The position numbers were made by a program, and so were the translations under genes. Positions 40,948 to 58,219 of a DNA stretch of 64,000 bases are shown here, piece after piece. The stretch is from Planctomycetota bacterium. Lineage in GTDB: Bacteria > Planctomycetota > PLA2 > JAEUHO01. The DNA is taken from the NCBI GenBank assembly GCA_965223505.1, contig CBDCWP010000021.1, positions 128,001 to 192,000 of the forward strand, read 5' to 3'. A model generated the notes under the pieces. It was not told where the DNA came from. It was given only the letters and a program-made list of their open reading frames with translations, and did not search any database. Position 1 is the first letter of the stretch. The number at the start of each line of letters is the position of its first letter.

Positions 40948-42861
40948 ATGCAGACGGTGAAACAGGACCAATTCCTACAGGTCGCCTCGGTGGACGACGC
41001 GCGTACGCGTTGGTACGCGGCGCTCGCGCTCGATCCGCGCCCGGCGGAGCTCGTGCCGCTGGACCGGTCGCTGGGCCGCACCCTCGCCGAAGACATCGTC
41101 GCGCCCGGCGACGTTCCGGCGTTCGACCGCTCGAACGTCGACGGGTTCGCGGTGCGCGCCGCCGACACATTCGGTGCCGACGAGCGAACGCCCCGTCTGC
41201 TGCGGATCGCAGAGGAGTCGATCGATGCCGGTCACGCGCCGACGAAGGAGCTCGAAGCGGGGCACGCGGTCGTCATCGCGACCGGCGGCGTCGTACCGCG
41301 CGGCGCGGACGCCGTCGTCATGGTCGAAGACACGGAGACCGACGGCGACCTGGTGAAGGTCACGCGACCTGTATCGCCGGGAGGACGCATCAGTAACGCC
41401 GGCAGTGACATCACGCGCGGCGAGACGTTGCTGCGCGCGGGCCTGCGACTCTCCGCGCGCGAGACGGGAACGCTCGCGGCGTGCGGCGTCGACCCTGTCG
41501 CCTGTCGCGCACGGGTGCGCGTCGCCGTGCTCTCGACAGGCGATGAGATCGTCGCGCCCGGCACGACTTTGGCGCCGGGGCAGGTGCACGACGCGAACGC
41601 GACGCTGCTCGCCGACGCGATTCGCGAGCTCGGTGACGAAGCGCACGTGCTCGGCATCGCGCCTGACGACGCGGAGCCGTTGCGCCGGATGCTGCGCGAA
41701 GCGTGGGCGGACAGCGACGTGATCCTGCTCTCCGGCGGAACGAGCAAGGGCGGCGGCGACCTCTCGTACCGCGTGCTGGCCGAGGAGGCGGAGATCATCG
41801 TGCACGGCGTCGCGCTGAAGCCGGGCAAGCCGCTGTGCCTGGCGGCGTGGGACCGGAAACCGGTCGTGATCCTGCCGGGGTTCCCGACGTCCGCCATCTT
41901 CACCTTCCACGCGTTCGTCGTGCCCGTGCTCGGCAAGCTCGCGGGACGCGCCGGTTTGCCGGCGTCGACGATCCGCGCCAAGCTCTCCCGTCACATCCGC
42001 TCCGATCGGGGCCGCGCCGAATTCACGTTGGTCAGCCTCGTCGGCGGCGACGACGGCTGGGTCGCGTTCCCGATGGGCAAGGGCTCGGGCTCCGTCACCA
42101 CCTTCGCGCGCGCGGACGGCTTCTTCCAGGTCCCCGCGAACGTGGAGTACGTCGAAGCCGACGACGTGGTCGACGTCACGCTGCTCGGTCGCGACCTGCG
42201 CCCCGCGGCGCTGGTGATCGTGGGTAGCCACTGCACGGGCCTCGACGTGATCGTCGGCGACCTTTCGAAGACGCTGGGCGACGTCAAGGTGATCACCGTC
42301 GGCTCGCGCGGCGGCGTCGACGCGCTGCGCCATGGCGCCTGCGACATCGCGCCGGTGCATCTGTTCGACAAGGAACGCGGCACGTGGAACGAGTCGTTCG
42401 CGCCGCCGGGCACCCGGTTGCTGCGCGGCTACGGGCGAACCCAGGGCCTGGCATTTCGAGCGGAGCACGGCGACCACTTCTCCGGCGACGTCGAAGCCGC
42501 GTTCCTCCGCGCCGCGCGCGACGAGACGCTTCGGTTGGCGAACCGCAATCCTGCGAGCGGCACGCGCATCCTCGTCGAGGAGTTGCTGGGCGACGCGCCA
42601 AAGCCCGCGGGCTGGGCGACGTCGTACACGTCGCACACCGCCGTTGCCGCGTCGATCGCCCAGCGTCGCGCGGACTACGGCATCTGCCTCGCATCGGCCG
42701 CACGCAAGGCCGGACTCGAGTGGAGGCCCTGGCGTGCGGAGCAGTACGACTTCCTGGTGCCGGACGATCGCTGGACGTCTCCGGGCGTCACGGCGTTTCG
42801 CAAGACACTCGCGACGCCGAAGGTGCGCGCCGCCCTCGAGGACGCGGGGTTCGAGCTTTGA
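40948..42861 (+). CDS. moeA: MoeA fused to a C-terminal PBP/LysR-substrate-binding-like domain
   Basis: FDRSNVDGFAV, STGDE, SGGTSKG, KPGKP, LPGFP; C-terminal GSH...GSRGG...NRNPASGTR. Confidence 0.92.
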   Translation: MQTVKQDQFLQVASVDDARTRWYAALALDPRPAELVPLDRSLGRTLAEDIVAPGDVPAFDRSNVDGFAVRAADTFGADERTPRLLRIAEESIDAGHAPTKELEAGHAVVIATGGVVPRGADAVVMVEDTETDGDLVKVTRPVSPGGRISNAGSDITRGETLLRAGLRLSARETGTLAACGVDPVACRARVRVAVLSTGDEIVAPGTTLAPGQVHDANATLLADAIRELGDEAHVLGIAPDDAEPLRRMLREAWADSDVILLSGGTSKGGGDLSYRVLAEEAEIIVHGVALKPGKPLCLAAWDRKPVVILPGFPTSAIFTFHAFVVPVLGKLAGRAGLPASTIRAKLSRHIRSDRGRAEFTLVSLVGGDDGWVAFPMGKGSGSVTTFARADGFFQVPANVEYVEADDVVDVTLLGRDLRPAALVIVGSHCTGLDVIVGDLSKTLGDVKVITVGSRGGVDALRHGACDIAPVHLFDKERGTWNESFAPPGTRLLRGYGRTQGLAFRAEHGDHFSGDVEAAFLRAARDETLRLANRNPASGTRILVEELLGDAPKPAGWATSYTSHTAVAASIAQRRADYGICLASAARKAGLEWRPWRAEQYDFLVPDDRWTSPGVTAFRKTLATPKVRAALEDAGFEL

Positions 42862-43460
42862 TCCGCGGCGCGCTCGTTCTGTGCGGTGGTCACAGCACCC
42901 GCATGGGCGCGCCCAAGGCGCTGCTGCCGTTCGGCGAGGAGCTCATGTTGCAGCGCGTGGTGCGTCTCGTCTCGGAGGCCGTGACGGACGTCGTCGTGGT
43001 CGCGCGCCCCGGTCAGGAGATGCCGCCGCTTCCGAAACACGTGCGGGTCACCTACGACGAGATCCCCGATCAGGGTCCGCTCGGCGGCATCGCGCCGGGC
43101 CTGAAAGTCTCCCGCGCGGACGCGGTGTACGTAACCGGGTGCGACGTTCCGTTCTTGAGAACGGCCGTCGTCGACCTGCTCTTCGACCGGCTCGCGTCGA
43201 ACGACGTCGCCGTGTGCGAGACCGATGGGTTCACGCACCCGCTGGCGGCGGTCTATCGCGTCGGCGTGCTGCCCGTGGTCGAGAAGCTGCTGGCAACCGA
43301 GCGCCGGCGGCCGGTGTACCTCTTCGACCGGGTGCGGACGGTGCGCGTGAACGCGGCCGCGCTTCGGAAGGTCGATCCGAACCTCGACACGCTCGCGAAC
43401 CTGAACACACCGGAGGCCTACGAGGCGGCGCTGCAGTCGCTGTTGGGCGAGACGCCGTGA
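42858..43460 (+). CDS. mobA: Molybdenum cofactor guanylyltransferase
   Basis: LCGGHSTRMG.PK, GPLGGI, CDVP, N.NTP; TTG start overlaps the moeA stop. Confidence 0.92.
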   Translation: MIRGALVLCGGHSTRMGAPKALLPFGEELMLQRVVRLVSEAVTDVVVVARPGQEMPPLPKHVRVTYDEIPDQGPLGGIAPGLKVSRADAVYVTGCDVPFLRTAVVDLLFDRLASNDVAVCETDGFTHPLAAVYRVGVLPVVEKLLATERRRPVYLFDRVRTVRVNAAALRKVDPNLDTLANLNTPEAYEAALQSLLGETP

Positions 43461-43717
43461 TCCGGGTCGAGCTCTACGAGGTGGCGCGGCGGCTGGCAGG
43501 CGTCGCGAGCCTCGAGGTCGAAGCGTCGACCCTGGGCGAGGCGCTCCAGGCGGTCCGTTTGCGATACCCGGTGCTGGAGCCGGACGTGATCGTCGGCCGG
43601 CGCCTGGCGCCGCAGTGGCGCGCCAGCCGCAACGGCCGCGAGTGGATCGAGGATCCGGACACCCCGCTCGAGGTCGGTGACGCGCTCGTGCTCGTGAGCG
43701 CCTTGGCGGGCGGGTAG
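43457..43717 (+). CDS. moaD: MoaD/ThiS-family sulfur carrier
   Basis: 86-aa beta-grasp-like protein ending ALAGG; GTGA overlap with mobA. Confidence 0.85.
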   Translation: MIRVELYEVARRLAGVASLEVEASTLGEALQAVRLRYPVLEPDVIVGRRLAPQWRASRNGREWIEDPDTPLEVGDALVLVSALAGG

Positions 43718-43771
43718 CGGGAAGTCGAACGCGCTCCCGGCGTCCAAGTCGATGGTCACTGGGAGAGTCGC

Positions 43772-44653
43772 ATGCCGTCCAAGAGCGTCCTTGGTTGTGT
43801 TCTGTGTTGCGGGGCCGTCGCAGGGTTCCTCGCTTCGGCCTTCGTGCCGTGGGCGCCGGCCCACGCGGATGACGAGGAAACGGCGCGGCTGTACGTCAAC
43901 TGCCCCGAGGCCTCGGTGCAGCCGATCGTCGACTTCGTCGCGGAGCGGGGCGGCATAGTGCACGACATGGATTCGTTCAAGCGCCTGTTCGCGTCGCGGA
44001 GAGTCCCGCTGTTGCCGCCGCTGCAGTCGGGTGTCGACGTCATCACCGCGATCTACGAGTCTCTTGCCGCGGCCCGGCAAGAGGGCGAGGTGCTCGACGT
44101 CACGAGCTTGCACGTCCGCGAGCGACGGTTCCGCCTCACGGTGCGCATGTCGAGCTACGAGACGGCCGATGCGCTGCGCACGGCGCTCAACACCAACCCC
44201 TACCTGAGACACCGCATGGGGGAGGGCAACCGCGTCGAGCTCGGCAGCTCGTCGCGCACCAAGGACGGGCACGTCAAGCAGGACATCGCCGCGAAGCTGC
44301 CCGAGTCGGTCGGGGACGTCAGGGTTCCCGAGATCGTGCCGGACGTGAGCATTCGCGTCGCGGACGTCGACCGGATCGCCCTGAAGACCGACCTGCGTCT
44401 GATGCAGGCGGGCCCGGAGCGGCGCGATGCGAATCGAAGCCTCGGCGTGATGACGATCTCGCGTGAGTTCGTCTACGAGGCGACCGAGCTGGTGCGCCTG
44501 CGCGCGTTTCTCAAGCTGCTCGCCGAGCACCCGGACTTCACGGTGATCGACGTCCGCTTCACGATCGACGAGAAGGAATCGACGGCCGAGCGCCTGCTGG
44601 TCGGGAAGTCGACGGTGCGCGTCGCGCGCTACGGAGCCAATCCGCCGAAGTAG
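43772..44653 (+). CDS. Hypothetical exported protein with PilN/GspL-like and PilO/GspM-like segments
   Basis: N-terminal signal/TM; VTSLHV...LTV..SSYETADALRTAL..NPYL; LRAFLKLL...FTVIDVRF. Confidence 0.6.
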   Translation: MPSKSVLGCVLCCGAVAGFLASAFVPWAPAHADDEETARLYVNCPEASVQPIVDFVAERGGIVHDMDSFKRLFASRRVPLLPPLQSGVDVITAIYESLAAARQEGEVLDVTSLHVRERRFRLTVRMSSYETADALRTALNTNPYLRHRMGEGNRVELGSSSRTKDGHVKQDIAAKLPESVGDVRVPEIVPDVSIRVADVDRIALKTDLRLMQAGPERRDANRSLGVMTISREFVYEATELVRLRAFLKLLAEHPDFTVIDVRFTIDEKESTAERLLVGKSTVRVARYGANPPK

Positions 44654-44683
44654 GCGCGAGCTGCGACGTCCGCGGAGGGACGC

Positions 44684-45559
44684 ATGGGAAGGCATACGGT
44701 GCTCGCGCTCACGGCGGCAACGGCGCTCGCTCTCGTGGTGCTCGCCCCGAGCTGGTTGGACCGCTCCGCGGATGCGGACGGACAGCCGTCGACCGAGCTG
44801 GTCGTTCGGTGTGCACCCGACCGAGTGCAGTCGATCGTCGACTTCGTGACCCGGCAAGGCGGCACGGTGCACGACCGCGCGACCCTGGAGCCGCTGCGCG
44901 CGAGGGCACGCGGAGCCGCGCCCGGACTGCCGGCGATCAGGTCGATCATCCCGGTCTGGGACGGCCTGCACGAGACGCTCTCCGTCGTCAACGCAAGCGC
45001 CGGTCGGCATCCGGTCTCGCTCTCCCACGTGGACATCCAGGACCGTCGCATGCAGCTCACGGTCGAGACGCAAGACCGGAGTCTGATCGACGCGCTTCAA
45101 CGGGCCCTGCTGAAGCACCCGGTCGTCGCGGCGCGCGTCGCCGGCGCCAACCGTCCCGTCGAGCGCGCTACCGCGAGGAAGGACCGGAGCGGATCGTGGC
45201 GCGCCGACCTCACGGTTCATTTCGGGCGACCTGCCGAAGCGAAGCCGCCGACAGAGGACGCCGAGAGGACGATTCGCCTCGATGATCTGAAGACGGCATC
45301 CAAGCGTGCCGGGGTCGAGCTGATCTACGCGTCGAACGAGCACCTCGAGGCACATCGGCGCACCGGCCTCGCCACGATCTGGCGCGCGGTCACATACGCA
45401 CGCGTGGAGTCCGACGGTCTGCAATCGCTCTTGCGCGAACTCGAGTCGATCCGCGGCGTGAGCGTCGCCGTGCTTCGCGTTTCGGTCGATCCGGAGGGCG
45501 CCGCCGCGTTCGAGAAGGTCAACGTCCGCGTGGCCAGACGCATCCACTGGCGGGACTGA
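44684..45559 (+). CDS. Paralog of 43772..44653
   Basis: Shares L.V.C....VQ.IVDFV...GG.VHD...L and the overall layout with the upstream gene. Confidence 0.6.
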   Translation: MGRHTVLALTAATALALVVLAPSWLDRSADADGQPSTELVVRCAPDRVQSIVDFVTRQGGTVHDRATLEPLRARARGAAPGLPAIRSIIPVWDGLHETLSVVNASAGRHPVSLSHVDIQDRRMQLTVETQDRSLIDALQRALLKHPVVAARVAGANRPVERATARKDRSGSWRADLTVHFGRPAEAKPPTEDAERTIRLDDLKTASKRAGVELIYASNEHLEAHRRTGLATIWRAVTYARVESDGLQSLLRELESIRGVSVAVLRVSVDPEGAAAFEKVNVRVARRIHWRD

Positions 45560-45678: not shown

Positions 45679-47793
45679 ATGGTGCACGCGCAACGGAACC
45701 ACCGACGACCGAACCGGGGTCTGCTCGCCCTGGGACTCGCCGCTGCGCTTCTCACGGCGCTGCTCGGCTGCGGCGACGGCGAGCTCGATTTCGTCTTGCC
45801 CTCGGACGCCGTCTTCTCGGTCACCAACCCGGCGGGGATGCCCGTCGCCGGCGCGACCGTCTTCCTGGTGCCGGCATCGGATATCGACACCGGTGACGTC
45901 ACCGGAAACGACGTTCTCTCCGGCGCCGCCGAGACCCGCGACGAACCGCTCGAAGACGCCGTTCGCCTGCGCGGCGCCTCGTACCCGCGGGGCGTCACCG
46001 ACGCCGGCGGTCGCGTCCTCATCGCCGACGTTCCGTTCGGCACCTACTTCTGGTTCGTCCTGCCCGCGGCCGGCGACACCGAGCACCTTCCCGGTGGCGA
46101 AGGCTGCCGGCTCGCCCGGCAGAGCACGACGTTCCTGGGCACGACCACGTCGATCCGCCTCACGTCGCAGCCCTCCGCTGCGGCGGCCTTCGTCGGATCC
46201 ACGACCTGTCTGGCTTGTCACAGCGCGCACGGCGGCTTTCGTCAGCACGCACATCGACTCGCCTTCACGGTGCCGGGGCAGCTCTCGGCGCTGCAGGACG
46301 CGACGCGCTACCCGAACATCCAGGGCGGCTGGGCGACGTTCCTTCCCGCCGCCGTTCACACCGGCGGCACGCCCGTCTACTTCTCGGACTTCGACGGCGG
46401 GCGCGAAACCGACAAGTTCAAGACGTCGCTCAGCGATCCGCGCCCGGCCGAGACGCTCTTCGTGATCGCGTGGCTCTGGCGGGACACCGCGGACAACCGC
46501 TTCAAGATCACGCTCGAGAACGTCATCAACGCGATCGATCCACCGCGAACGCTCGTCGTCGAGCTGACCTACGGCGGGCCGTTGCACATGCAGCGCAGTC
46601 TCGTGAGCGTCCCGGGGCGCAACGGACGCTACCCACTGCTCCAGTGGCAGTCGGAAGGCGACGAGACGAAGTTCGACCGAACGCGCAAGGTGTTCCGCGA
46701 CTACCGACTCGACTCGTTCTGGAGCGCGGGCACGCAGACGTTCACCGACCCGCCGGTCGATACCGCCTTCGAGGGCAACTGCACCGGCTGTCACTCGAAC
46801 GGGTTCGAGCGCTTTCGGGACCCGGGCACCAACGAGTGGCTGTCGCGCGCCGTGTCCGACGTCGGCGGCGCTTTCGACATCGACGGCGACGGACCCGCCG
46901 ACGAGATCAACCTCGGCTGCGAGACCTGCCACGGCGCCGGCTCGGAGCACGTGGCCTGGGCGCAGGCCAACCCCGTCTCGTCGGCCGCGCGGTTCATCGT
47001 GTCGAACGCGTACTTGAGCCCGTCACGCGACATGCAGGTGTGCGGCCGCTGCCACGACCGCGTCGTCGGCAACGGCCCGCATCCCACGGGCGAGCCGCTC
47101 GATCCGCAGGGGCGGCGCGCCCGGCCCGGCATCAGCCGCATGCAGTTCCTCGCAAACCACGTCACGCGCAAGGGGCCCGATGCGGCCGACTATTGGAACG
47201 ACGACCTGCACAGCCGCAACCACTACCAGCAGTACGCCGACATGTTGAAGTCGAAGAAACACAGGAACGACCGCATCCTCACCACGTGCACGGACTGCCA
47301 CGAGAGCCACGGCAACGGCCCCTTCGTGCGGCATCTGCGCGCGGATCCCTCCGACGCGAACAGCGCGCTGTGCCAGCAGTGCCACCTGACCGACCACTTC
47401 CAACACATGTTCGACGAGACCGGCACGACCCACGCGGGCGACGCGACGACCTGCGTGCGCTGCCACCAGACATGGGCATCGCGCGCGGGCGCCGGACGGT
47501 ACGGGATCATCATCACCGGCGCCACCGGCACGGCGCTCGACCTTCAACGGACGTACTTCCAGAACGACCGACGCAGCCACCTCTTCCTCGGCGTACCGGG
47601 AAGACTGCATCCCGATGTCGCGGGCGTGCTTCCGGCGTTCGCCATGCCGATCCCGTTCACGAACGAGTGCGGGGCGGGCTGCCACAGCGTCGTCAATCTG
47701 CAGAACCTCAAACCGACAAACGGCGTCGAGATCGACGTCTCGCGCCGCCCGTTGCCGGACCTGGGACGGGGTGCATCGGGAGACGACCGATGA
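45679..47793 (+). CDS. Multiheme cytochrome c lipoprotein (7 CxxCH plus 1 CxxxCH)
   Basis: LLGC lipobox; N-terminal beta-sandwich; CLACH, CTGCH, CETCH, CGRCH, CTDCH, CQQCH, CVRCH, CGAGCH. Confidence 0.92.
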   Translation: MVHAQRNHRRPNRGLLALGLAAALLTALLGCGDGELDFVLPSDAVFSVTNPAGMPVAGATVFLVPASDIDTGDVTGNDVLSGAAETRDEPLEDAVRLRGASYPRGVTDAGGRVLIADVPFGTYFWFVLPAAGDTEHLPGGEGCRLARQSTTFLGTTTSIRLTSQPSAAAAFVGSTTCLACHSAHGGFRQHAHRLAFTVPGQLSALQDATRYPNIQGGWATFLPAAVHTGGTPVYFSDFDGGRETDKFKTSLSDPRPAETLFVIAWLWRDTADNRFKITLENVINAIDPPRTLVVELTYGGPLHMQRSLVSVPGRNGRYPLLQWQSEGDETKFDRTRKVFRDYRLDSFWSAGTQTFTDPPVDTAFEGNCTGCHSNGFERFRDPGTNEWLSRAVSDVGGAFDIDGDGPADEINLGCETCHGAGSEHVAWAQANPVSSAARFIVSNAYLSPSRDMQVCGRCHDRVVGNGPHPTGEPLDPQGRRARPGISRMQFLANHVTRKGPDAADYWNDDLHSRNHYQQYADMLKSKKHRNDRILTTCTDCHESHGNGPFVRHLRADPSDANSALCQQCHLTDHFQHMFDETGTTHAGDATTCVRCHQTWASRAGAGRYGIIITGATGTALDLQRTYFQNDRRSHLFLGVPGRLHPDVAGVLPAFAMPIPFTNECGAGCHSVVNLQNLKPTNGVEIDVSRRPLPDLGRGASGDDR

Positions 47794-48410
47794 TCCGCGT
47801 TTGTCTGCTCCTTTGCGCGACGTCGGCCGTGGTGGCCAACCTCTTGCCCGCGTCGCGCCATGCTCCCGCCGCGGCCGACGAAGAGAAACCGTGCTTCATC
47901 GGCGCCGCGAAATGCAAGCACTGCCACTTCCGGCATCACAAGACGTGGAAGCAAAGCGGCCTCGCCCAGGCGTTCGAGGCGCTGAAGCCGGGCGCGGCCG
48001 CCGAGAAGAAGAGGTCGAGCGGGCTGGACGTGAAGAAGGACTACACGAAGGACCCGAAGTGCCTGAAGTGCCACACGACCGGCTACGGCACCCCCACCGG
48101 CTATCCCGTGCCGGTGGCCGATGGGTGGACGGCCGAAGAGCAAGAGCGCGCGAAGATCAATGAAGGCGTGACGTGCGAGGTCTGCCACGGCCCGGGCAGC
48201 CTCTACGCGCCCTACAAGCGCAAACACAAGGACTACAAGCGCTCCGCCATCGTCGAGCGCGGCGCGATCGCGCCGGTGTCGTCCAAGACGTGCGACCAGT
48301 GCCACGTGCGCGAGTGTCCGACGATGGGGTCCGACTACCGTTTCGACTTCGCCGCCAAGCGCCGCTCGAAGCGCATTCACTCACGCGTGCGGCTCAAACA
48401 CCCGCACTGA
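47790..48410 (+). CDS. Tetraheme cytochrome c554-like protein
   Basis: Signal peptide; FIGAAKCKHCH, CLKCHTTG, GVTCEVCHGPGS, CDQCH; ATGA overlap. Confidence 0.9.
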   Translation: MIRVCLLLCATSAVVANLLPASRHAPAAADEEKPCFIGAAKCKHCHFRHHKTWKQSGLAQAFEALKPGAAAEKKRSSGLDVKKDYTKDPKCLKCHTTGYGTPTGYPVPVADGWTAEEQERAKINEGVTCEVCHGPGSLYAPYKRKHKDYKRSAIVERGAIAPVSSKTCDQCHVRECPTMGSDYRFDFAAKRRSKRIHSRVRLKHPH

Positions 48411-49950: not shown

Positions 49951-51008
49951 TGAACACGCCCGCACGAAAATGCGTGATCGGACTCCTGCTGTTCACCGTC
50001 TATCTGGTGGGCTGCCGCCTGTTCGCCCCGCCGGAGTGGCGCCCGGGCAGCGCACGCGCGCCGGTCGAGTTCGTCGGTGGACCGCGCATGGACCACGCCG
50101 CGCACGTCGAGCGCGGTCTCGCGTGCGCCGACTGCCACGCGCCCGATCCCAGGACGGGCGAACCCGGATCGCCTTCCCGCGACGACTGCGCGCAGTGTCA
50201 CGACGAGATCGACGAAGCCTGGCCGGCGCAGAAACGCGTCGCCACCGCGTTCTTCCGACCCGACGGAACGCCCCGATGGCGGCGCGCCGTCGCGGACTAC
50301 GACCCCGAGGTCATCTTCGATCATCGCGGACACGGCGCAATGAGCTGCCTCTCATGCCACGGCGCGGTGACGCGCCAATCGCGACGGGTGGCGGGCGAGT
50401 TGCACACGATGGACCAATGCATGCACTGCCACGAACGCCAGACGGCCGCGAACGAGTGCGCGACGTGCCATCGCGTCCTGCGCGACGACAAGGCGCCCGC
50501 GAACCACCGGTACCTGTGGAAGGAGCGCCACGGGCAGATCGTTCGTAATCACGGATCGATGGAGGCCGGCCGCTGCGACATCTGCCATCGCGACGCGTCG
50601 TATTGCGACGACTGCCACCAGGACGAGCCGCCGCGCGACCACACGGCGCTATTCCGGATCCGCACCCACGGCGTTCACGCGGCCATGGACCGTCAGAAGT
50701 GCGCGACGTGTCACATGACCGACTTCTGCCAGCGCTGCCACGAGAACACGCCGCCGCGCTCGCACCGCGGCGTCTTCGCAACGGGACGCAACACGCACTG
50801 CGTGCAGTGCCACTTTCCGGTGACCCAGACCCGCTCGTGCCGCGTGTGCCACTTCGAGAATCCGACGCACGACACGGCGCCGGATCAGCCGCCGTCGCAC
50901 TTCCCGGGGATGAGCTGCCGCAACTGTCACAACGCCATCGGCCAGGGCGGCGCGCGTCCGCTGCGTCACCTCGACAACGGGCAAGTTTGCGAGTCTTGCC
51001 ACCGCTAG
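49950..51008 (+). CDS. 13-heme cytochrome c (c3-like repeats), probable lipoprotein
   Basis: YLVGC lipobox; 13 CxxCH in 352 aa; [MF]DH..H distal His pairs; TGATG overlap with the porin gene. Confidence 0.92.
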   Translation: MNTPARKCVIGLLLFTVYLVGCRLFAPPEWRPGSARAPVEFVGGPRMDHAAHVERGLACADCHAPDPRTGEPGSPSRDDCAQCHDEIDEAWPAQKRVATAFFRPDGTPRWRRAVADYDPEVIFDHRGHGAMSCLSCHGAVTRQSRRVAGELHTMDQCMHCHERQTAANECATCHRVLRDDKAPANHRYLWKERHGQIVRNHGSMEAGRCDICHRDASYCDDCHQDEPPRDHTALFRIRTHGVHAAMDRQKCATCHMTDFCQRCHENTPPRSHRGVFATGRNTHCVQCHFPVTQTRSCRVCHFENPTHDTAPDQPPSHFPGMSCRNCHNAIGQGGARPLRHLDNGQVCESCHR

Positions 51009-51018
51009 CGGACTTGGC

Positions 51019-51437: not shown

Positions 51438-51443
51438 GCGTAC

Positions 51444-53255
51444 ATGCCCCCCGGTGGATACCACGGCCGCTACGGTCACTTCGACCTGGAGCGAACCGAG
51501 GGGGCGCTGCGTCCGCTCTCCGACGACGTGCTGCGGCGCTTCCTCGGCGGATCGGGTCTGGGGGCATGGCTCCTCATGCAAGAGAGCGCAGGCGGCTACG
51601 ACCCGTTGGGGCCCGAAGCGCCGATCGTCATCGCGCTCTCGCCGCTGGTCGGTTCGCCGCTCACGACCAGCGCGAAGTTCGCCGTGGTCACGAAGTCGCC
51701 GCTGACGGAGCGCATCAACGACGCGCTCTCGAGCGACCGTTTCGCCATCGAGCTGAAGCGCGCCGGCATGGACGCATTGGTCGTCACCGGCTGGTGCGAC
51801 GACTGGTCGGTACTGGTCGTGGACGACGGCGCGATGCGCCTGGAGCCGGCGGACGACCTCGTCGGTCTGTCGTCGCTCGAGGCCGAGGAACGCCTGCGCA
51901 AGAAACACGGCGCGACGTTTCGCTTCTTCGGCATCGGCCCCGCGGGCGAAAACGGCGTGCGCTACGCGTCGGCGTCGGGCGACAGCCGGCACGCCGGCCG
52001 CGGCGGCACCGGCGCCGTCTTCGGATCGAAGCGGCTCAAGGGCGTCCTCGTGCGCGGGACGACGCCATGCGAGGTGGACGACCGTGAAGCGGTGCTCGCG
52101 CTGGCCAAGGAGCTGTCGGCGAAGTCGCTGGGCGCCGGGACCGCGAAGTACCGCGAGCTCGGGACGGTCGCGAACGTCCTCGTGATGAACCGGCTCGGGG
52201 CGCTGCCGACCCGCAACTTCAAGGAGGCCACGTTCGAAGGCGCCGAGCAGATCTCCGGCGAGGCGTTTCACACGACGCCCGACAAGATGCGCAAGCACTG
52301 CGCCGCGTGCACGATCGGCTGCGAGCACGTGTTCGCGTCCCGGAGCGGCCGGCAGGTGCGCCTGGAATACGAAGGCATCTTCGCGCTCGGCCCGCTGTGC
52401 GGCATCGACGACCGGGACGTGATCCTCGAAGCGGCGGCACGCTGCGACGACCTCGGGCTCGACGTCATCTCCGCCGGTGGCACGATCGCCTTCGCCATGG
52501 AGTGCAGGGAGAAGGGCCTGCTCGAGAACGCACCGTCCTTCGGCGACGGGGACGGATTGCTGTCGTTGCTGGACGACATCGCGCACCGGCGCGGACTGGG
52601 CGACCTGCTCGCGGAGGGCTCGCGGCGCGCGGCGCTGATCGTCGGCGGCGGCGCCGAGCACTTCGCGTGTCACGTCAAGGGACTCGAGCTGCCGGGGTAC
52701 GAACCGCGCGCGCTGCAGGCGATGGGACTCGGTCTCGCCGTGGGTGCGCGCGGCGCGGATCACAACCGCTCGGGCGCCTACGAGGAGGACTTCCGCTCGG
52801 GCGCGGACCGCTTCGTGGCCGACGACGCCAAGGGCCCTGCGGCGGCGAACAGCGAGACGCGGGCGGCGATCCTGGACAGCCTGATCCTGTGCAAGTTCCT
52901 GCGCGGCGTGTTCGAGGACCTCGAGGCGGAGAGCGCGCGGATGCTGTCCGCGATCACCGGCTGGGACGTCACGGCCGCCCCGTTGCATCGAACAGGCGAA
53001 CGGATCGTGACGCTGAAGAAGCTCTTCAATCTGCGCGAGGGCTGGGAGCGGTCGGAAGACACCCTCCCACAACGGTTTCTGAGCGAAGCCCTGGACGGCG
53101 GCGCTTCGTCCGGGGCCGCGTTGAGCCCCCACGACCTCGACCGTATGATCGTAAGCTACTACCGCGCGCGCGGTTGGACCGACGACGGCCGGGTTCCCGC
53201 AGAGCGGATCGAGAGCCTCGGGCTGAGTGACGTCCAGCCGGCGCCGAAGAGGTAG
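51444..53255 (+). CDS. aor: Aldehyde:ferredoxin oxidoreductase (AOR/WOR family, tungsten)
   Basis: KSPLT, IGPAGE, GRGGTGAVFGSK.LK, CAACTIGC, EYE, DDLGLD, KGLELPGYEPR, RGADH, LILCKF. Confidence 0.93.
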   Translation: MPPGGYHGRYGHFDLERTEGALRPLSDDVLRRFLGGSGLGAWLLMQESAGGYDPLGPEAPIVIALSPLVGSPLTTSAKFAVVTKSPLTERINDALSSDRFAIELKRAGMDALVVTGWCDDWSVLVVDDGAMRLEPADDLVGLSSLEAEERLRKKHGATFRFFGIGPAGENGVRYASASGDSRHAGRGGTGAVFGSKRLKGVLVRGTTPCEVDDREAVLALAKELSAKSLGAGTAKYRELGTVANVLVMNRLGALPTRNFKEATFEGAEQISGEAFHTTPDKMRKHCAACTIGCEHVFASRSGRQVRLEYEGIFALGPLCGIDDRDVILEAAARCDDLGLDVISAGGTIAFAMECREKGLLENAPSFGDGDGLLSLLDDIAHRRGLGDLLAEGSRRAALIVGGGAEHFACHVKGLELPGYEPRALQAMGLGLAVGARGADHNRSGAYEEDFRSGADRFVADDAKGPAAANSETRAAILDSLILCKFLRGVFEDLEAESARMLSAITGWDVTAAPLHRTGERIVTLKKLFNLREGWERSEDTLPQRFLSEALDGGASSGAALSPHDLDRMIVSYYRARGWTDDGRVPAERIESLGLSDVQPAPKR

Positions 53256-53272
53256 CGGAGGTCGAGCCCGAC

Positions 53273-56107
53273 ATGAACTCGCCGTTGACCGCGGACACGG
53301 AAGCCACCGAAGCGCCGGCCAAGACCGTCACGCTGGAGATCGACGGACAAGAGGTCACCGTCCCCGAAGGCACCACCGTCTGGCAGGCCGCCAAGGACAT
53401 GGGCATCGACATTCCGGTGCTTTGCCACGATCCCAAGCTCGATCCCGTCGGCGTGTGCCGCATGTGCGTCGTCGAGGTCGAAGGTGCGCGCACCCTGGTC
53501 GCGTCGTGCGTGCGCGACTGCGAAGACGGCTTGAAGGTCAAGACGGGCTCCGAGACCGTCGTGCGCAACCGCAAGGTGCTCACCGATCTGTTGATGGCGG
53601 ATCAGGACGCGACCAGCCGCCGCGACGAGAAGACCAACGACGACGAGCTGTTCAGCCTCGCCCGCGAGTTCCAGGTCGACGGCTCGCGTTGGCCCCGCGG
53701 CAACGGCCGTCCCGACGACGACTCGTCGCCCGTCATCTCGGTGGATCACCAGGCCTGCATCCTTTGCGACCGCTGCATTCGCGCCTGTGACGACATCCAA
53801 TTCAACATGGTCATCGGCCGCACCGGCAAGGGCTATGCGACGCGCATCGGCTTCGACCTGAACAACCCGATGGGCGACTCGACCTGCGTGGAGTGCGGCG
53901 AGTGCGCATCGGCGTGTCCGACCGGGGCGCTCACCAACAAGCCGATCACCGTGCCGATTCGGCCGCCCGAGACGCTCGAGAAGGTCGACTCCGTCTGCCC
54001 CTATTGCGGCGTCGGCTGCGCGCTGACGTTCATGGTCGACAGAGAAGAGAACAAGGTCGTCTACGCCGAGGGCCGTGACCCGAGCGCCAACGAGGGGCGG
54101 CTGTGCGTCAAGGGCCGTTACGGCTTCGACTACGCGACGCACAAGCACCGGCTGACCAAGCCCCTGATCCGCAAGGAGAGCTCGTACCCGAAGGGGCCGC
54201 TCAGCGCGAACATGCAGCGCCGGGACGACGGCACGCGCGGCGAGAGCGTGTATCCCGACTACGACGAGGCGCTGAACCACTTCCGGGAAGCGACGTGGGA
54301 CGAGGCCCTCGATCTCGTGGCAAGCAAGCTCAAGTCGATTCGCGACGAACACGGCCCGCAGGCGCTCGCCGGCTTCGGCAGCGCGAAGTGCTCGAATGAA
54401 GAGGCGTATCTCTTCCAGAAGATGATCCGCGCGGTGTTCGGCACGAACAACGTGGACCACTGCACGCGGCTTTGCCACGCGTCCAGCGTGGCCGCGCTGC
54501 TCGAGACGATCGGCTCGGGCGCGGTCACGACCGTGTACGGCGACATCGAGAACTCCGACGTCGCGCTCGTGACGGGCACGAACACGACCAGCAACCACCC
54601 CGTCGCAGCGACCTTCTTCAAGGAGGCCGCGAAGAACGGCACGAAGCTCATCATCGTGAACCCGCACCGGCCCGAGCTGGCCGATCACGGCGAGTACGTT
54701 CGCATCCGGCCTGGCAGCGACGTCTCCTTCTACAACGCCATCATGAACGTCATCCTCGAGGAGGGCCTCGAGGACCGCGCGTACATCGAGAAGTTCACGG
54801 AGAACTTCGATGCGCTCAAGGAGGTCGTTGCGCGCTACACGCCCGAGGTCGCGGCGCCCATCTGCGGCATCTCGGCCGACGAGATCCGCGACCTGGCGCG
54901 CACCATCGGCAACGCGAAGGCGATGATCATCTTCTGGGGCATGGGCATCTCGCAGCACGTGCACGGCACCGACAACGCGCGCAGCCTCATCTCGCTGTGC
55001 CTGATGACGGGCAACGTCGGCCGCCCGGGTACGGGCCTGCATCCGCTGCGCGGCCAGAACAACGTCCAGGGCGCCAGCGACGCGGGCTTGATCCCGATGG
55101 TCTACCCCGACTACGTGCCGGTCAACGACCCCGACGCGCAGAAGCGCTACGAGGAAGCCTGGGGCGTCTCGCTCGATCCGAATCCCGGCAAGACGGTGGT
55201 CGAGATCGCGCACGCCGCGGTCGAGGGTGAGCTCAAGGGCATGTACATCATGGGCGAGAACCCGTTCATGTCCGACCCGAACGTGAAGCACGCCCGCGAG
55301 GGGTTCATGAACCTCGACTTCCTCGTCGTCCAGGACATCTTCCTGACCGAGACCGCCGAGGTCGCCGACGTCGTGCTGCCCGCGACGAGCTACTTCGAGA
55401 AGACGGGCACCTACACGAACACGGACCGGCGCGTGCAGATCGGCGCGACGACGCTCGAGCCGCCCGGTGAAGCCCGGCTGGACTGGGAGATCCTGTGCGA
55501 GGTCATGACGCGCATGGGCTACGAGCAGTCGTACGACGACATCGAGGACGTCTTCGTCGAGTTCAGCGAGATGACGGAGAGCTACAAAGGCCTGCGCTAC
55601 CGCCACCTGGGCGGCCCGGGCAAGCTCTGGCCGTGCGCCGATCCCGACAACTCCGACGGCGAGGTCGTGCTGTTCGGTGACGGCTTCCCGACGCCGTCGG
55701 GCCGCGGCAAGTTCTCGCCCGCCGAGGTCATCCCGCCGGCCGAGCTTCCCGACGAGGAGTACCCGTTCGTCCTGAACACGGGGCGGACGCTGCAGCACTG
55801 GCACGGCGGCTCGATGACGCGTCGCGCAAAGGTGCTCGACCAAATCAACCCCGAGGCGTTCTGCGAAATCCACCCCGACGACATGGCGTCGCTCGGGCTC
55901 GAGGACGGCGGCATGGTGCGCTTGAGCACGCGCCGCAACTCCATTCGCGTGAAGGCCGTCGCGAGCACGAAGACCTCGAAGGGCAGCGTGTTCATGCCGT
56001 TCCACTACCGCGAGGCGGCGGCGAACCTGCTGACGACCGACACGCTCGACCCGATCGGCAAGATCCCATCCTTCAAGTTCGCAGCGCTCAAGGTCGAGAA
56101 GGCGTGA
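53273..56107 (+). CDS. fdhF: Formate dehydrogenase alpha subunit (FdhF/FdsA-type, Cys ligand, cytoplasmic)
   Basis: 2Fe-2S (IPVLCH..CRMC..C), two 4Fe-4S (CILCDRC, CVECGEC), CPYCGVGC, CTRLCH, LRGQNNVQG; no Tat signal. Confidence 0.93.
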   Translation: MNSPLTADTEATEAPAKTVTLEIDGQEVTVPEGTTVWQAAKDMGIDIPVLCHDPKLDPVGVCRMCVVEVEGARTLVASCVRDCEDGLKVKTGSETVVRNRKVLTDLLMADQDATSRRDEKTNDDELFSLAREFQVDGSRWPRGNGRPDDDSSPVISVDHQACILCDRCIRACDDIQFNMVIGRTGKGYATRIGFDLNNPMGDSTCVECGECASACPTGALTNKPITVPIRPPETLEKVDSVCPYCGVGCALTFMVDREENKVVYAEGRDPSANEGRLCVKGRYGFDYATHKHRLTKPLIRKESSYPKGPLSANMQRRDDGTRGESVYPDYDEALNHFREATWDEALDLVASKLKSIRDEHGPQALAGFGSAKCSNEEAYLFQKMIRAVFGTNNVDHCTRLCHASSVAALLETIGSGAVTTVYGDIENSDVALVTGTNTTSNHPVAATFFKEAAKNGTKLIIVNPHRPELADHGEYVRIRPGSDVSFYNAIMNVILEEGLEDRAYIEKFTENFDALKEVVARYTPEVAAPICGISADEIRDLARTIGNAKAMIIFWGMGISQHVHGTDNARSLISLCLMTGNVGRPGTGLHPLRGQNNVQGASDAGLIPMVYPDYVPVNDPDAQKRYEEAWGVSLDPNPGKTVVEIAHAAVEGELKGMYIMGENPFMSDPNVKHAREGFMNLDFLVVQDIFLTETAEVADVVLPATSYFEKTGTYTNTDRRVQIGATTLEPPGEARLDWEILCEVMTRMGYEQSYDDIEDVFVEFSEMTESYKGLRYRHLGGPGKLWPCADPDNSDGEVVLFGDGFPTPSGRGKFSPAEVIPPAELPDEEYPFVLNTGRTLQHWHGGSMTRRAKVLDQINPEAFCEIHPDDMASLGLEDGGMVRLSTRRNSIRVKAVASTKTSKGSVFMPFHYREAAANLLTTDTLDPIGKIPSFKFAALKVEKA

Positions 56108-56916: not shown

Positions 56917-56942
56917 CTCGTGATCAAAATAGGAGATCGACC

Positions 56943-57638
56943 GTGGAGTTCCTCTGGGAGGGATTCAAGACCGCCGTCCATCTCATCCTGAGCGGCGACG
57001 CGGAAACGTGGCACGCCGCGTGGGTGACGATCTTCTGCTCGTTCATCGCGGTCGCGCTGGCTGCTCCGCTCGCGGTCACGTACGGCGGCTGGCTGGCCGT
57101 CTATCGCCCGCGCGGGCACCGCCTGCAGGTGTTGCTGCTGCGCATCGGCATGTTCGTGCCCACGATCTTCATCGGGACGATGGTCTGGGGCTTCCTCTCG
57201 CGGCGGGGCCCGCTGGGCGAGCTCGACATGCTCTACACGAAGGGCGCGATCATCGCCGGCGAGTTCCTGCTCGTCTTCCCCATCCTGGGCGCACTGACGC
57301 ACAGCGCCCTCGAAGCGCCCGACCGGCGACCGTTCGAGACGGCGCGTACGCTGGGCGCCGGACCGGTGCGCACCTTGTTGACGCTGTTGGGTGAAGTACG
57401 CGGTGTCATCGTGGGCGCGATGCTCATGGCCTGTGCCCGCTGCTTCTCCGAGCTGGGCATCTCCGTCACGGTCGGCGGGAACCTGCAGTGGCAAACCAGC
57501 ACCTTGAGCGGCGGTGCCCAGCTCATGGTGCGCCAGGGGGAGTTCGGCGAAGCGCTCGCGTTGGGGTTCATCCTTCTGTTCTTCGCCGGCATCGTCGCCG
57601 TGCTCGCGCCGTTGGTTTCGAAGGAGAGCAAGGCGTGA
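56943..57638 (+). CDS. tupB: Tungstate ABC transporter permease
   Basis: LSRRGPLG, ETARTLGA (EAA loop), FSELG...VGGN. Confidence 0.88.
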   Translation: MEFLWEGFKTAVHLILSGDAETWHAAWVTIFCSFIAVALAAPLAVTYGGWLAVYRPRGHRLQVLLLRIGMFVPTIFIGTMVWGFLSRRGPLGELDMLYTKGAIIAGEFLLVFPILGALTHSALEAPDRRPFETARTLGAGPVRTLLTLLGEVRGVIVGAMLMACARCFSELGISVTVGGNLQWQTSTLSGGAQLMVRQGEFGEALALGFILLFFAGIVAVLAPLVSKESKA

Positions 57639-58219
57639 TGCGCATGCGGAACATCCGCGTCGTGTTCGGCGACGTCGTCGGCCTGTGGTTGGACGAGCTC
57701 GACATCGAATCCGGCGAACGACTCGGCGTCACGGGCCCGAACGGCTGCGGCAAGTCGACGCTGATGCGGGTGCTCGCGGGTCTGCAGGCGGTCACGTCGG
57801 GAACGGTGCAGGGGCTGCCGGCGCCCGGCCGCATCACGCTCGTGCATCAGCGCCCCTACTTCTTCCGCGGCACCGCGCGAGACAACGTCGTCTACGCGTT
57901 GAAGACGGCAGGGAAGCCAACGTCGGAGGCGGACGCGTGGCTGGAACGGCTCGGCGCCGCCGAGCTCGCCGATCGAACGGCGGGCGTGCTCTCGGGCGGC
58001 GAGCGCCGCCGCGTCGCGGTCGCGCGCGCGCTGGCGATCCGGCCGGAGATCCTGCTGCTCGACGAGCCGTTCGCCGCGCTCGACGACGAGGGCCTCGCGA
58101 CGATGAACGCCGCGATCGGAGCGTTCGAAGGCACGCTGGTGGTCACGGCGCCGGACCTGAAAGACGCGCCGGTCGCGCGGACGGTCGAGCTTCGTCCCGC
58201 CGAACGTCGAAACGGATAG
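57638..58219 (+). CDS. tupC: Tungstate ABC transporter ATPase
   Basis: GPNGCGKST, LSGGE, LLLDEP; TGATG overlap with tupB. Confidence 0.85.
   Translation: MRMRNIRVVFGDVVGLWLDELDIESGERLGVTGPNGCGKSTLMRVLAGLQAVTSGTVQGLPAPGRITLVHQRPYFFRGTARDNVVYALKTAGKPTSEADAWLERLGAAELADRTAGVLSGGERRRVAVARALAIRPEILLLDEPFAALDDEGLATMNAAIGAFEGTLVVTAPDLKDAPVARTVELRPAERRNG

What the first reader, a model, noticed from the sequence alone, without database searches (positions are those of the whole stretch)
40948..58219. Tungsten-enzyme locus wrapped around the electron conduit
Seen: moeA-PBP, mobA and moaD on the left and AOR, FdhF and tupABC on the right, all on the + strand, with the PilN/O-like pair and the porin-cytochrome operon between them; hemH is about 1.3 kb further on. 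Known: AOR is a W-bis-pterin enzyme, TupA (TTTS) is tungstate-selective, and MobA makes the dinucleotide cofactor FdhF needs. Inference: a module that may link low-potential aldehyde/formate redox chemistry to extracellular acceptors or donors. Caveats: AOR and FDH lack export signals, no inner-membrane quinol oxidase or ferredoxin is in the window, and aor seems to have its own promoter, so the cytochrome operon could be an insertion into an older W locus.
Basis: partly seen in the sequence, partly recalled or inferred. Interest (0 to 1): 0.75.

Follow-up and report, generated by a model that had tools for sequence, protein, structure and literature searches.

The report
Tungsten-enzyme genes split by cytochrome module
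A set of genes for tungsten uptake, cofactor synthesis and two cytoplasmic tungsten enzymes is interrupted by an outer-membrane cytochrome module; the two look like separate units that sit side by side, not one machine.

Summary
One gene was missed: a minus-strand DUF1294 gene (51019-~51402) lies between the last cytochrome gene and aor.

The right arm, aor-fdhA-tupABC, is conserved in a Planctomycetota MAG at 63-81% protein identity (L001). In a Myxococcota chromosome (L002), mobA and an 82-residue MoaD-like tail ending in GG stop directly at the aor start codon. fdhA follows, a NuoE/F-type diaphorase gene lies upstream, and there are no cytochrome or porin genes.

The FDH is a full-length homologue of the cytoplasmic, NAD-linked tungsten FDH1 alpha subunit of Methylobacterium extorquens.

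The inserted block looks like a porin-cytochrome (Pcc) module:
- a lipoprotein cytochrome with 7 CXXCH and 1 CX3CH;
- a c554-like tetrahaem cytochrome;
- a modelled 24-strand barrel;
- a 346-residue cytochrome with 13 CXXCH;
- two tandem paralogues from an uncharacterised family with PilO/GspL-like domains.

Best reading: an older tungsten cassette and a Pcc-like module are juxtaposed. Electron flow between them is not supported. This is an ordinary new member of known kinds.

The parts
40948..42861 (+). moeA fused to a C-terminal PBP_like oxyanion-binding domain (metal insertion into molybdopterin)
Evidence: NF011068 at 691.7 bits, above the cutoff of 534. Pfam MoeA_N, MoCF_biosynth, MoeA_C and PBP_like also match.
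42870..43460 (+). mobA (guanylyltransferase that makes the bis-MGD cofactor)
   Evidence: PF12804 at 122 bits. TIGR02665 scores 103 bits, below its 151.85 cutoff. The start is approximate.
43469..43717 (+). moaD/ThiS-like small protein ending in AGG
   Evidence: ThiS 22.0 bits against a 22.5 cutoff. MoaD family 27.7 bits against 49.5. The C-terminal GG was read from the sequence.
43772..44653 (+). A293: exported or anchored protein of an uncharacterised family with two tandem PilO/GspL-like alpha-beta-beta domains
   Evidence: No Pfam or NCBIfam hit. Two close homologues and 60 family representatives. The model has pLDDT 89.4. Domain-level fold hits are PilO, EpsL and a type II secretion protein, TM 0.58-0.69 normalised to the target.
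44684..45559 (+). B291: tandem paralogue of A293
   Evidence: 29% identity over 262 residues, E 7e-25. It shares a clade with A293 (96/85 support).
45679..47793 (+). Putative outer-membrane lipoprotein multihaem cytochrome (7 CXXCH + 1 CX3CH)
   Evidence: Motif count and LLGC lipobox. Weak Cytochrome_C7, Paired_CXXCH and MtrC/MtrF-domain hits. No relative by sequence in the PDB. The ORF is open from 45619.
47808..48410 (+). Periplasmic tetrahaem cytochrome, c554-like
   Evidence: PF13435 at 62.5 bits. Nitrosomonas cytochrome c554 (1bvb), E 1.2e-15. 4 CXXCH and a signal peptide.
48427..49950 (+). Outer-membrane beta-barrel ('porin'), about 24 strands, with a disordered acidic/proline-rich N-terminal linker
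   Evidence: AlphaFold2 model: 24 strands over residues 98-506, pLDDT 72.5 overall and 85-94 in most barrel blocks. Fold hits to FimD usher, AlgE and Occ barrels, E 1e-9 to 1e-6. C-terminal Phe. 10 homologues.
49968..51008 (+). 346-residue cytochrome with 13 CXXCH and an LVGC lipobox or anchor; candidate periplasmic or in-barrel cytochrome
   Evidence: Motif count. The N-terminal half resembles ActA of alternative complex III (6lod, E 1e-7) and QrcA. Size and haem number match the Kuenenia/Anaeromyxobacter Pcc periplasmic cytochromes described in PMC4245776.
51019..51402 (-). DUF1294 small membrane protein, convergent with the cytochrome genes and divergent from aor
   Evidence: PF06961 at 72 bits, cutoff 25. 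Translation. The start codon is uncertain: GTG at 51402 is likely, and the ORF is open to 51567.
51444..53255 (+). Aldehyde:ferredoxin oxidoreductase family enzyme (tungsten-pterin type), cytoplasmic
   Evidence: PF02730 and PF01314. P. furiosus AOR (1aor) 340 bits and FOR (1b25) 309 bits. No signal peptide.
53273..56107 (+). Formate dehydrogenase alpha subunit, FDH1-alpha/FdsA type, Cys active site, cytoplasmic
   Evidence: TIGR01591 at 769 bits, above the 666 cutoff. 7vw6_A, the tungsten-containing FDH alpha subunit, scores 1018.7 bits over residues 11-941. The motif CTRLCHASS is identical, and the Cys aligns with Cys436 (PMC10869683).
56104..56916 (+). tupA-like tungstate-binding protein; start overlaps the fdhA stop by 4 bp
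   Evidence: PF12849 at 122.5 bits. NF041772 TupA at 181.5 bits, below its 400 cutoff. TTTS motif present; the motif is described in PMC5517513.
56943..57638 (+). tupB-like permease
   Evidence: NF038017 at 138.7 bits, above its cutoff of 100. NF041773 TupB at 135 bits, below its 320 cutoff.
57635..58219 (+). tupC-like ABC ATPase
   Evidence: PF00005 at 98 bits. 66% identical to the L001 counterpart.
58226..59482 (+). Secreted 418-residue protein with no family, 7 bp after tupC
   Evidence: No Pfam or NCBIfam hit. Only a 13-bit squalene-hopene-cyclase-like trace.
59479..60444 (-). hemH (ferrochelatase)
   Evidence: PF00762 at 331.6 bits; TIGR00109 at 268 bits.

Best explanation
Two independent units lie next to each other.

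Unit 1 is a cytoplasmic tungsten cassette.
- TupABC imports tungstate.
- MoeA-PBP, MobA and the MoaD-like protein build W-pterin and W-bis-MGD.
- An AOR-family enzyme oxidises aldehydes with a soluble acceptor.
- An FDH1-alpha-type formate dehydrogenase interconverts formate and CO2, passing electrons through its NuoG-like Fe-S domain to a diaphorase subunit encoded outside the window.

Unit 2 is a Pcc-like outer-membrane module.
- It has a roughly 24-strand barrel, a 13-haem cytochrome, a c554-like tetrahaem relay and a lipoprotein cytochrome with 8 haem motifs.
- Two PilO/GspL-fold paralogues sit in front of these genes.

Unit 2, together with a DUF1294 gene, lies between moaD and aor, a junction that is uninterrupted in a relative.

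Shown: gene identities, the synteny of the right arm, the uninterrupted junction in L002, and the strand break. Inferred: the metal, the direction of electron flow, the localisations, and that the module was inserted here rather than lost in L002.
For: - L002 (Myxococcota chromosome) carries a NuoE/F fusion at 7230-9176, then mobA running in the same frame into an 82-residue tail ending AGG at 9994, then aor starting at 9995 and fdhA at 11719-14523.
- L001 (Planctomycetota) carries aor-fdhA-tupA-tupB-tupC at 78, 81, 64, 63 and 66% identity.
- None of the six module proteins hits any of the 18 AOR loci at E <= 1e-5. None of the 18 loci holds a frame with 3 or more CXXCH; the window holds 3 such frames.
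- A DUF1294 gene on the minus strand separates cyt13 from aor.
- The FDH is a full-length homologue of MeFDH1-alpha (1018.7 bits) with the Cys436-equivalent ligand. MeFDH1 is an alpha/beta heterodimer with an FMN diaphorase beta subunit.
- AOR and FDH have no signal or twin-arginine sequences.
- The AOR clade is common: the 119 best of 7561 hits are 60-86% identical, and those that carry a name are Planctomycetota or Gemmataceae. The barrel has only 10 word-indexed relatives. Comparing by eye, none of those 10 shares a contig length with any of the 119 AOR hits.
Against: - Only one relative shows the moaD-aor junction, and it belongs to another phylum (AOR 53% identical). The closest relative, L001, starts inside aor.
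- Codon usage and GC content of the module match the rest of the window, and no flanking repeats were found. There is therefore no mark of recent insertion, and loss of the module in L002's lineage is not excluded.
- moaD and A293 are 55 bp apart with no convincing terminator, so the left tungsten genes and the cytochrome genes may share a transcript.
- The contig-length comparison is weak: contigs are short and partial AORs are filtered out by length.
Confidence: 0.7

Rival explanations
1. One reading: one functional module. Electrons from tungsten-dependent aldehyde or formate oxidation reach extracellular acceptors through the cytochrome conduit, or the conduit takes up electrons for CO2 or acid reduction.
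For: - All genes except DUF1294 are on one strand within 17 kb with short gaps.
- moaD and A293 are 55 bp apart with no clear terminator.
- The N-terminal half of cyt13 resembles ActA/QrcA, the cytochrome subunits of quinone-interacting complexes. A membrane link encoded elsewhere is therefore conceivable.
Against: - Both enzymes are cytoplasmic.
- The FDH type is NAD-linked.
- No quinol dehydrogenase or ferredoxin was found among the window ORFs scanned, no other frame has 3 or more CXXCH, and the diaphorase gene has no match anywhere in the window.
- L002 has the tungsten genes without any cytochromes.
- A minus-strand gene breaks the unit before aor.
Confidence: 0.08
2. Co-regulation without electron flow. 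moeA-mobA-moaD and the Pcc-like genes form one transcript of about 10 kb, induced for instance by anoxia. The position reflects shared expression conditions only.
For: Gaps from moeA to cyt13 run from overlaps up to about 120 bp. The scan found one terminator-like site on the + strand, lying inside the start of A293, and overall fewer sites than in shuffled sequence (7 against 9.2 expected).
Against: The promoter and terminator scans are uninformative here (1 promoter-like site against 0.8 expected). No transcript data exist. In L002 the cofactor genes are tied to aor and fdhA instead.
Confidence: 0.17
3. The cytochrome block is not an outward electron conduit. It could instead be an uptake or oxidation system (Fe(II) or Mn(II) oxidation, like PioAB/MtoAB) or a periplasmic redox module whose barrel has another role.
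For: - Direction cannot be read from sequence.
- The barrel's fold hits are generic: FimD, AlgE and Occ, with TM 0.3-0.45.
- The MtrB_PioB Pfam hit scores only 11.3 bits against a cutoff of 23.
Against: The gene set (barrel, adjacent 13-haem cytochrome of 346 residues, lipoprotein cytochrome with an atypical CX3CH) matches the published description of Pcc clusters (PMC4245776). That paper also notes that clusters without an outer cytochrome are the ones linked to Fe(II) oxidation.
Confidence: 0.05

Closest known systems
Porin-cytochrome (Pcc) gene clusters: Geobacter OmaB/OmbB/OmcB and the two-gene porin plus 12-14-haem cytochrome clusters of Ca. Kuenenia and Anaeromyxobacter (PMC4245776)
   Same: - A barrel gene sits next to a multihaem cytochrome of 346 residues with 13 CXXCH. 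The paper gives 338-344 residues and 12-14 haems for the Kuenenia and Anaeromyxobacter proteins.
- There is also a lipoprotein cytochrome with an atypical CX3CH motif, a feature the paper calls typical of Pcc outer cytochromes.
   Different: - A c554-like tetrahaem gene and two PilO/GspL-fold paralogues are part of the block.
- The barrel model has 24 strands.
- BLAST similarity to OmaB, OmbB or OmcB was not tested.
- The 13-haem protein has a lipobox and an ActA/QrcA-like N-terminal half.
MtrCAB of Shewanella
   Same: The same logic: a barrel, an inner decahaem-like cytochrome and a lipoprotein outer cytochrome.
   Different: The Pfam MtrB_PioB hit scores 11.3 bits (cutoff 23) and the MtrC/MtrF domain 22.9 bits (cutoff 30). 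Both are below cutoff.
Tungsten-containing NAD-dependent formate dehydrogenase FDH1 of Methylobacterium extorquens AM1 (PDB 7vw6, 7e5z)
   Same: The alignment runs the full length at 1018.7 bits. The CTRLCHASS motif is identical, with Cys at the tungsten-ligand position, and the N-terminal 2Fe-2S/4Fe-4S domain is present.
   Different: No beta (NuoE/F-like) subunit gene is in the 64-kb window. It is adjacent in L002. The metal was not determined.
Pyrococcus furiosus AOR and FOR (PDB 1aor, 1b25)
   Same: Both AFOR domains align over the full length, at 340 and 309 bits.
   Different: The substrate is unknown. The gene is conserved next to an FDH1-alpha gene in 2 of the 4 loci with AOR at 50% identity or more (L001, L002).
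TupABC tungstate transporter (Desulfovibrio alaskensis TupA, PMC5517513)
   Same: The TTTS motif is present, the fold is PBP_like_2, and the permease and ATPase genes follow.
   Different: The NCBIfam TupA and TupB equivalog scores are below their cutoffs: 181.5 against 400 and 135 against 320.
PilN/PilO and GspL/GspM periplasmic ferredoxin-like domains
   Same: A293 is modelled as an N-terminal hydrophobic helix followed by alpha-beta-beta-alpha-beta-beta domains. Single-domain fold hits are PilO 2rjz_B (TM 0.58), EpsL 2w7v_A (0.69) and 5hl8_A (0.66), each at probability 1.00.
   Different: - No Pfam PilN or PilO hit in any of 42 family members.
- Foldseek E-values are about 1e-2, and no hit reaches 1e-3.
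- The protein has two tandem domains.
- No pilus or secretion genes are nearby.
- The pair is a lineage-specific duplication, not an ancient N/O split.

Membership tests
Pcc porin-cytochrome cluster | Gene for a porin-like outer-membrane beta-barrel adjacent to a gene for a multihaem c-type cytochrome | tested here: met
   The barrel model has 24 strands and fold hits to outer-membrane barrels. The adjacent ORF has 13 CXXCH.
Pcc porin-cytochrome cluster | Outer-membrane (lipoprotein) c-type cytochrome in the cluster | tested here: inconclusive
   An LLGC lipobox and 7 CXXCH + 1 CX3CH are read from the sequence. Localisation cannot be tested.
Pcc porin-cytochrome cluster | BLAST similarity (E < 0.01) to OmaB/C, OmbB/C or OmcB/C, the criterion used in PMC4245776 | not tested
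Only weak NCBIfam hits to the GSU2203 and DmsE decahaem families, far below cutoff.
Pcc porin-cytochrome cluster | Electron transfer across the outer membrane | not testable with these tools
   Needs biochemistry.
MtrCAB | MtrB/PioB-family barrel and MtrC/MtrF-type domains above the Pfam cutoffs | tested here: not met
   PF11854 at 11.3 bits against 23. PF22113 at 22.9 bits against 30.
AOR family (tungsten-pterin aldehyde oxidoreductases) | AFOR_N and AFOR_C domains over the full length | tested here: met
   198 and 379 bits. 1aor at 340 bits over residues 7-596.
AOR family (tungsten-pterin aldehyde oxidoreductases) | Tungsten in the active site; aldehyde substrate | not testable with these tools
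   Inferred only from the family and the neighbouring tup genes.
FDH1/FdsA-type NAD-dependent formate dehydrogenase | Alpha subunit with a NuoG-like Fe-S N-terminus, a bis-MGD domain and a Cys/Sec ligand | tested here: met
   TIGR01591 at 769 bits, above 666. The Cys aligns with Cys436 of 7vw6_A.
FDH1/FdsA-type NAD-dependent formate dehydrogenase | Diaphorase (NuoE/F-like) beta subunit encoded alongside | tested here: not met
   tblastn of the L002 NuoE/F protein against the window gave a best E of 0.37. The subunit is present next to the cluster in L002. The rest of the genome was not available.
TupABC | TupA with the TTTS motif, followed by permease and ATPase genes | tested here: met
   TTTS is in the sequence. 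Gene order. The motif is described in PMC5517513.
TupABC | NCBIfam equivalog score above the cutoff | tested here: not met
   TupA 181.5 against 400; TupB 135 against 320.
MoaD/ThiS | Small beta-grasp protein with a C-terminal Gly-Gly and a family HMM score above the cutoff | tested here: inconclusive
   It ends in AGG. ThiS 22.0 against 22.5. MoaD family 27.7 against 49.5.
PilN/PilO | Match to the PilN or PilO family profiles, in a pilus-gene context | tested here: not met
   None of 42 family members matches PilN or PilO in Pfam. No pilus genes were found among the window ORFs scanned. Support is limited to domain-level fold similarity and atlas leads at 0.82 and 0.79.

The most novel reading that the evidence does not exclude
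The block is more than a neighbour. The moeA-mobA-moaD genes and the Pcc-like genes share one transcript. The organism then expresses its outer-membrane conduit together with tungsten-cofactor synthesis. Electrons from formate or aldehyde oxidation travel via NADH or ferredoxin, the quinone pool and an unlinked quinol oxidase that docks the ActA/QrcA-like 13-haem protein, and end at extracellular acceptors. The two PilO/GspL-fold paralogues would be a new envelope-spanning scaffold for such conduits.
Probability: 0.1. Interest if true: 0.7.

Novelty: new member of a known kind. Interest (0 to 1): 0.3.

Why it matters
If the tungsten enzymes really fed an outer-membrane conduit, it would be a new way to couple very low-potential C1 and aldehyde chemistry to minerals or electrodes, in a phylum not known for it. 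The evidence points instead to a common tungsten cassette (aor-fdhA-tupABC with its cofactor genes) that here is interrupted by a Pcc-like module.

Two smaller points have some value:
- The aor/FDH1-alpha pairing is conserved across two phyla. It hints at a two-step aldehyde to acid to CO2 route (for example formaldehyde to formate to CO2). This is inference only.
- A small uncharacterised family with PilO/GspL-like domains (60 representatives among 1.84 billion) sits at the head of a cytochrome module.

Tried and rejected
- Promoter and terminator scan of 40000-59900: 1 promoter-like site against 0.8 expected, and 7 terminator-like sites against 9.2 expected. Uninformative.
- Flanking repeats around 43300-51600: only haem-motif repeats and the A/B paralogy, with no insertion scars.
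- Rfam at gathering thresholds over 38000-62000: 0 matches, so no Moco riboswitch.
- Codon usage and GC3 for 41 genes: the module genes are not outliers.
- PDB sequence search with the 704-residue cytochrome: 0 hits.
- PDB profile search with the A293 family: one hit at E 0.68, treated as noise.
- Pfam on 42 family members: three unrelated single-member hits.
- Atlas search for A293: best score 0.90, an unnamed cluster; PilO2 at 0.82 and MshI/PilN at 0.79 are leads only.
- Atlas search for the barrel: unnamed clusters at 0.97-0.98, most commonly Planctomycetota, Nitrospirota and Deferribacterota.
No claim about binding is made.
- Cluster membership, names and accessions of the barrel and A293 homologues could not be fetched.
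- The idea that A293 and B291 are an ancient PilN/PilO-type pair was rejected: they are sister sequences within one small clade.
The neighbourhoods of the barrel, cytochrome and A293 homologues therefore stayed unchecked.

Full report
**What is there**

The window is 61-71% G+C, so raw ORF lists are crowded. I picked genes by third-position G+C and then scanned them against Pfam and NCBIfam.

The left arm, on the + strand, contains:
- a MoeA fused to a PBP_like oxyanion-binding domain, 40948-42861 (NF011068, 691.7 bits, cutoff 534);
- mobA, about 42870-43460 (PF12804);
- an 82-residue MoaD/ThiS-like ORF, 43469-43717, ending in AGG. It scores just below the family cutoffs: ThiS 22.0 against 22.5 and MoaD family 27.7 against 49.5.

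The right arm contains:
- an AOR-family enzyme, 51444-53255;
- a 944-residue formate dehydrogenase alpha subunit, 53273-56107;
- tupA, 56104-56916, whose start overlaps the fdhA stop by 4 bp and which carries TTTS;
- tupB and tupC, ending at 58219;
- a secreted 418-residue protein with no family, 58226-59482;
- hemH on the minus strand, 59479-60444.

Neither AOR nor FDH has a hydrophobic or twin-arginine N-terminus.

**The middle block**

From the translations, the block holds:
- two paralogous ORFs, A293 (43772-44653) and B291 (44684-45559), which are 29% identical (E 7e-25);
- a roughly 700-residue cytochrome with an LLGC lipobox, 7 CXXCH and one CX3CH;
- a 200-residue cytochrome with 4 CXXCH, related to Nitrosomonas cytochrome c554 (PF13435; 1bvb, E 1.2e-15);
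- a 507-residue protein ending in Phe;
- a 346-residue cytochrome with an LVGC lipobox and 13 CXXCH.

The 507-residue protein has 10 homologues at 30-48% identity. With those as the alignment, AlphaFold2 gives a barrel of 24 strands over residues 98-506. Mean pLDDT is 72.5, with most barrel blocks at 85-94 and residues 18-89 disordered. Foldseek matches large outer-membrane barrels such as FimD usher, AlgE and Occ porins (E 1e-9 to 1e-6, TM 0.3-0.45). That places it in the right fold class without naming a specific family.

The N-terminal half of the 13-haem protein resembles ActA of alternative complex III (6lod, E 1e-7) and QrcA.

According to passages read in PMC4245776, Pcc clusters always pair a porin-like gene with a periplasmic multihaem cytochrome gene. 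In Ca. Kuenenia and Anaeromyxobacter that cytochrome has 338-344 residues and 12-14 haems, and atypical haem motifs are frequent in Pcc outer cytochromes. The block fits this description. Similarity to the Geobacter reference proteins was not tested. The Mtr-specific Pfam models score below their cutoffs. Passages read in PMC10732223 show that PCC clusters have already been annotated in Planctomycetota MAGs.

**The 'PilN/O-like pair'**

A293 has only two close homologues among 5.8 billion clusters. A profile search finds 60 representatives among 1.84 billion. None of 42 members matches PilN or PilO in Pfam, and no PDB relative is found by sequence.

The model is confident (pLDDT 89.4). It shows an N-terminal hydrophobic helix followed by two tandem alpha-beta-beta-alpha-beta-beta domains. 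The PDB fold search gives no hit at E <= 1e-3. It does give single-domain matches at probability 1.00 to PilO (2rjz_B, TM 0.58 normalised to the target), EpsL (2w7v_A, 0.69) and a type II secretion membrane protein (5hl8_A, 0.66).

In a tree of the 42 sequences, A293, its two orthologues and B291 form one clade (96/85 support). The pair is therefore a local duplication. Whether the two proteins bind each other could not be tested.

**A missed gene**

The 436 bp between the last cytochrome gene and aor are occupied by a minus-strand DUF1294 gene (PF06961, 72 bits, cutoff 25). Its stop lies about 10 bp from the cytochrome stop. Its likely GTG start at 51402 is about 40 bp from the aor start. The aor-fdhA-tupABC genes are therefore very probably a separate transcription unit from the cytochrome genes. 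In contrast, moaD and A293 are only 55 bp apart, and co-transcription of the left arm with the cytochrome genes remains possible.

**Relatives**

It returned 18 loci out of 34 pattern matches. I compared 19 window proteins with all 18 loci by tblastn.

- L001 (a Planctomycetota MAG contig that begins inside aor) has aor-fdhA-tupA-tupB-tupC in the same order, at 78, 81, 64, 63 and 66% identity.
- L002 (a Myxococcota MAG chromosome; AOR 53%, FDH 63%) has a NuoE/NuoF fusion at 7230-9176. mobA follows, running in frame into an 82-residue tail that ends AGG at 9994. aor starts at 9995 and fdhA lies at 11719-14523. The tail aligns weakly with the window's MoaD-like ORF (E 1e-4 over 38 residues, same length and same ending).
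- L003 and L004 (53% and 50%) carry aor without fdhA in the DNA available.
- The other 14 loci are distant AORs (33-38% identical).

The six proteins of the middle block hit none of the 18 loci. None of the 18 loci has a stop-free frame of at least 80 residues with 3 or more CXXCH, whereas the window has three. The moaD-aor junction is visible in only one locus with AOR identity of 50% or more. In that one it is uninterrupted.

**Abundance contrast**

The AOR search found 7561 proteins at E <= 1e-150 among 8000 scored. The 119 best besides the window's own are 60-86% identical, and where a source names them they are Planctomycetota, Planctomycetes or Gemmataceae.

I compared by eye the 'longest contig' values of these 119 with those of the 10 barrel homologues. 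None of the 10 coincides. This is weak evidence, because contigs are short and partial AORs are excluded by the length filter. It agrees with the picture that the AOR cassette is common while the barrel is not usually beside it.

**What the FDH is**

Its best solved relative is the tungsten-containing FDH1 alpha subunit of Methylobacterium extorquens (7vw6, 7e5z; 1018.7 bits over residues 11-941). The motif CTRLCHASS is identical, and the Cys aligns with chain residue 436. Passages read in PMC10869683 name Cys436 as the tungsten ligand. They describe the enzyme as an alpha/beta heterodimer whose beta subunit is an FMN-containing, Nqo1/2-like diaphorase.

L002 encodes exactly such a NuoE/F fusion next to the cluster. 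The window has no homologue (best tblastn E 0.37). The FDH is thus most likely a cytoplasmic NAD-linked enzyme, which argues against a direct tie to an outer-membrane conduit.

**Tests for insertion**

Codon usage and G+C of the block match the rest of the window. No flanking repeats and no Rfam elements were found. If the block was inserted, it was not recently or not from a compositionally foreign donor. Loss in the L002 lineage cannot be excluded.

**Mechanism proposed**

TupABC takes up tungstate. The TTTS motif is described for TupA in PMC5517513 (passages). MoeA-PBP inserts the metal, MobA adds GMP for the FDH cofactor, and the MoaD-like protein carries sulfur for pterin synthesis; these roles come from established pathway knowledge. 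AOR and FDH act in the cytoplasm.

Separately, the barrel and the 13-haem cytochrome form the core of a trans-outer-membrane wire. The lipoprotein cytochrome sits at the surface and the c554-like protein acts as a periplasmic relay. These roles are inferred from the Pcc analogy. A293 and B291 may scaffold the assembly, which is speculative.

**Verdict**

The functional link is not supported.

Neighbourhoods of the module's own homologues, transcript data and the rest of the genome stayed unchecked.

Noticed in passing
window 51019-51402 (-): A DUF1294 small membrane protein gene is wedged between the cytochrome genes and aor. It is convergent with the former and divergent from the latter, with only about 40 bp to the aor start.
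   Followed up: yes
L002 7230-14523: The Myxococcota relative has a NuoE/NuoF fusion, then MobA running in frame into a MoaD-like GG tail, then AOR and FDH1-alpha as one tight block. AOR lies between the genes for the two FDH subunits. This hints that AOR and FDH work in one pathway (for example aldehyde to acid to CO2) or share the diaphorase.
   Followed up: partly
window 58226-59482 (+): A secreted 418-residue protein with no family starts 7 bp after tupC. Its only trace is a 13-bit match to the squalene-hopene cyclase C-terminal domain. Whether it belongs to the tup operon is unknown, because L001 ends before this point.
   Followed up: partly
window 48427-49950, residues 18-89 of the barrel protein: A long acidic, proline-rich, predicted-disordered linker lies between the signal peptide and the barrel (pLDDT 30-42).
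   Followed up: no
window 21130-24087 (-): frdC-, frdB- and frdA-like fumarate reductase / succinate dehydrogenase genes, a sign of anaerobic respiration in the same organism.
   Followed up: no
window 13720-15864 (-): A 714-residue protein with two CCP/MauG di-haem peroxidase stretches and a cytochrome c domain.
   Followed up: no
window 24627-27647 (-) and 60786-63973 (-): Large secreted proteins: one with CHRD and He_PIG repeats (1006 residues), and several ORFs rich in CarboxypepD_reg domains.
   Followed up: no
L013 1-11659: A Caldilineaceae contig carries an AOR, a PBP_like protein resembling the MoeA-PBP tail, tupB, tupC and tupA, and then a second AOR on the opposite strand. This is another compact tungsten cassette without cytochromes.
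   Followed up: partly
window 27951-31180: A Ser/Thr protein kinase (752 residues, minus strand) lies next to a FecR-domain protein on the + strand.
   Followed up: no
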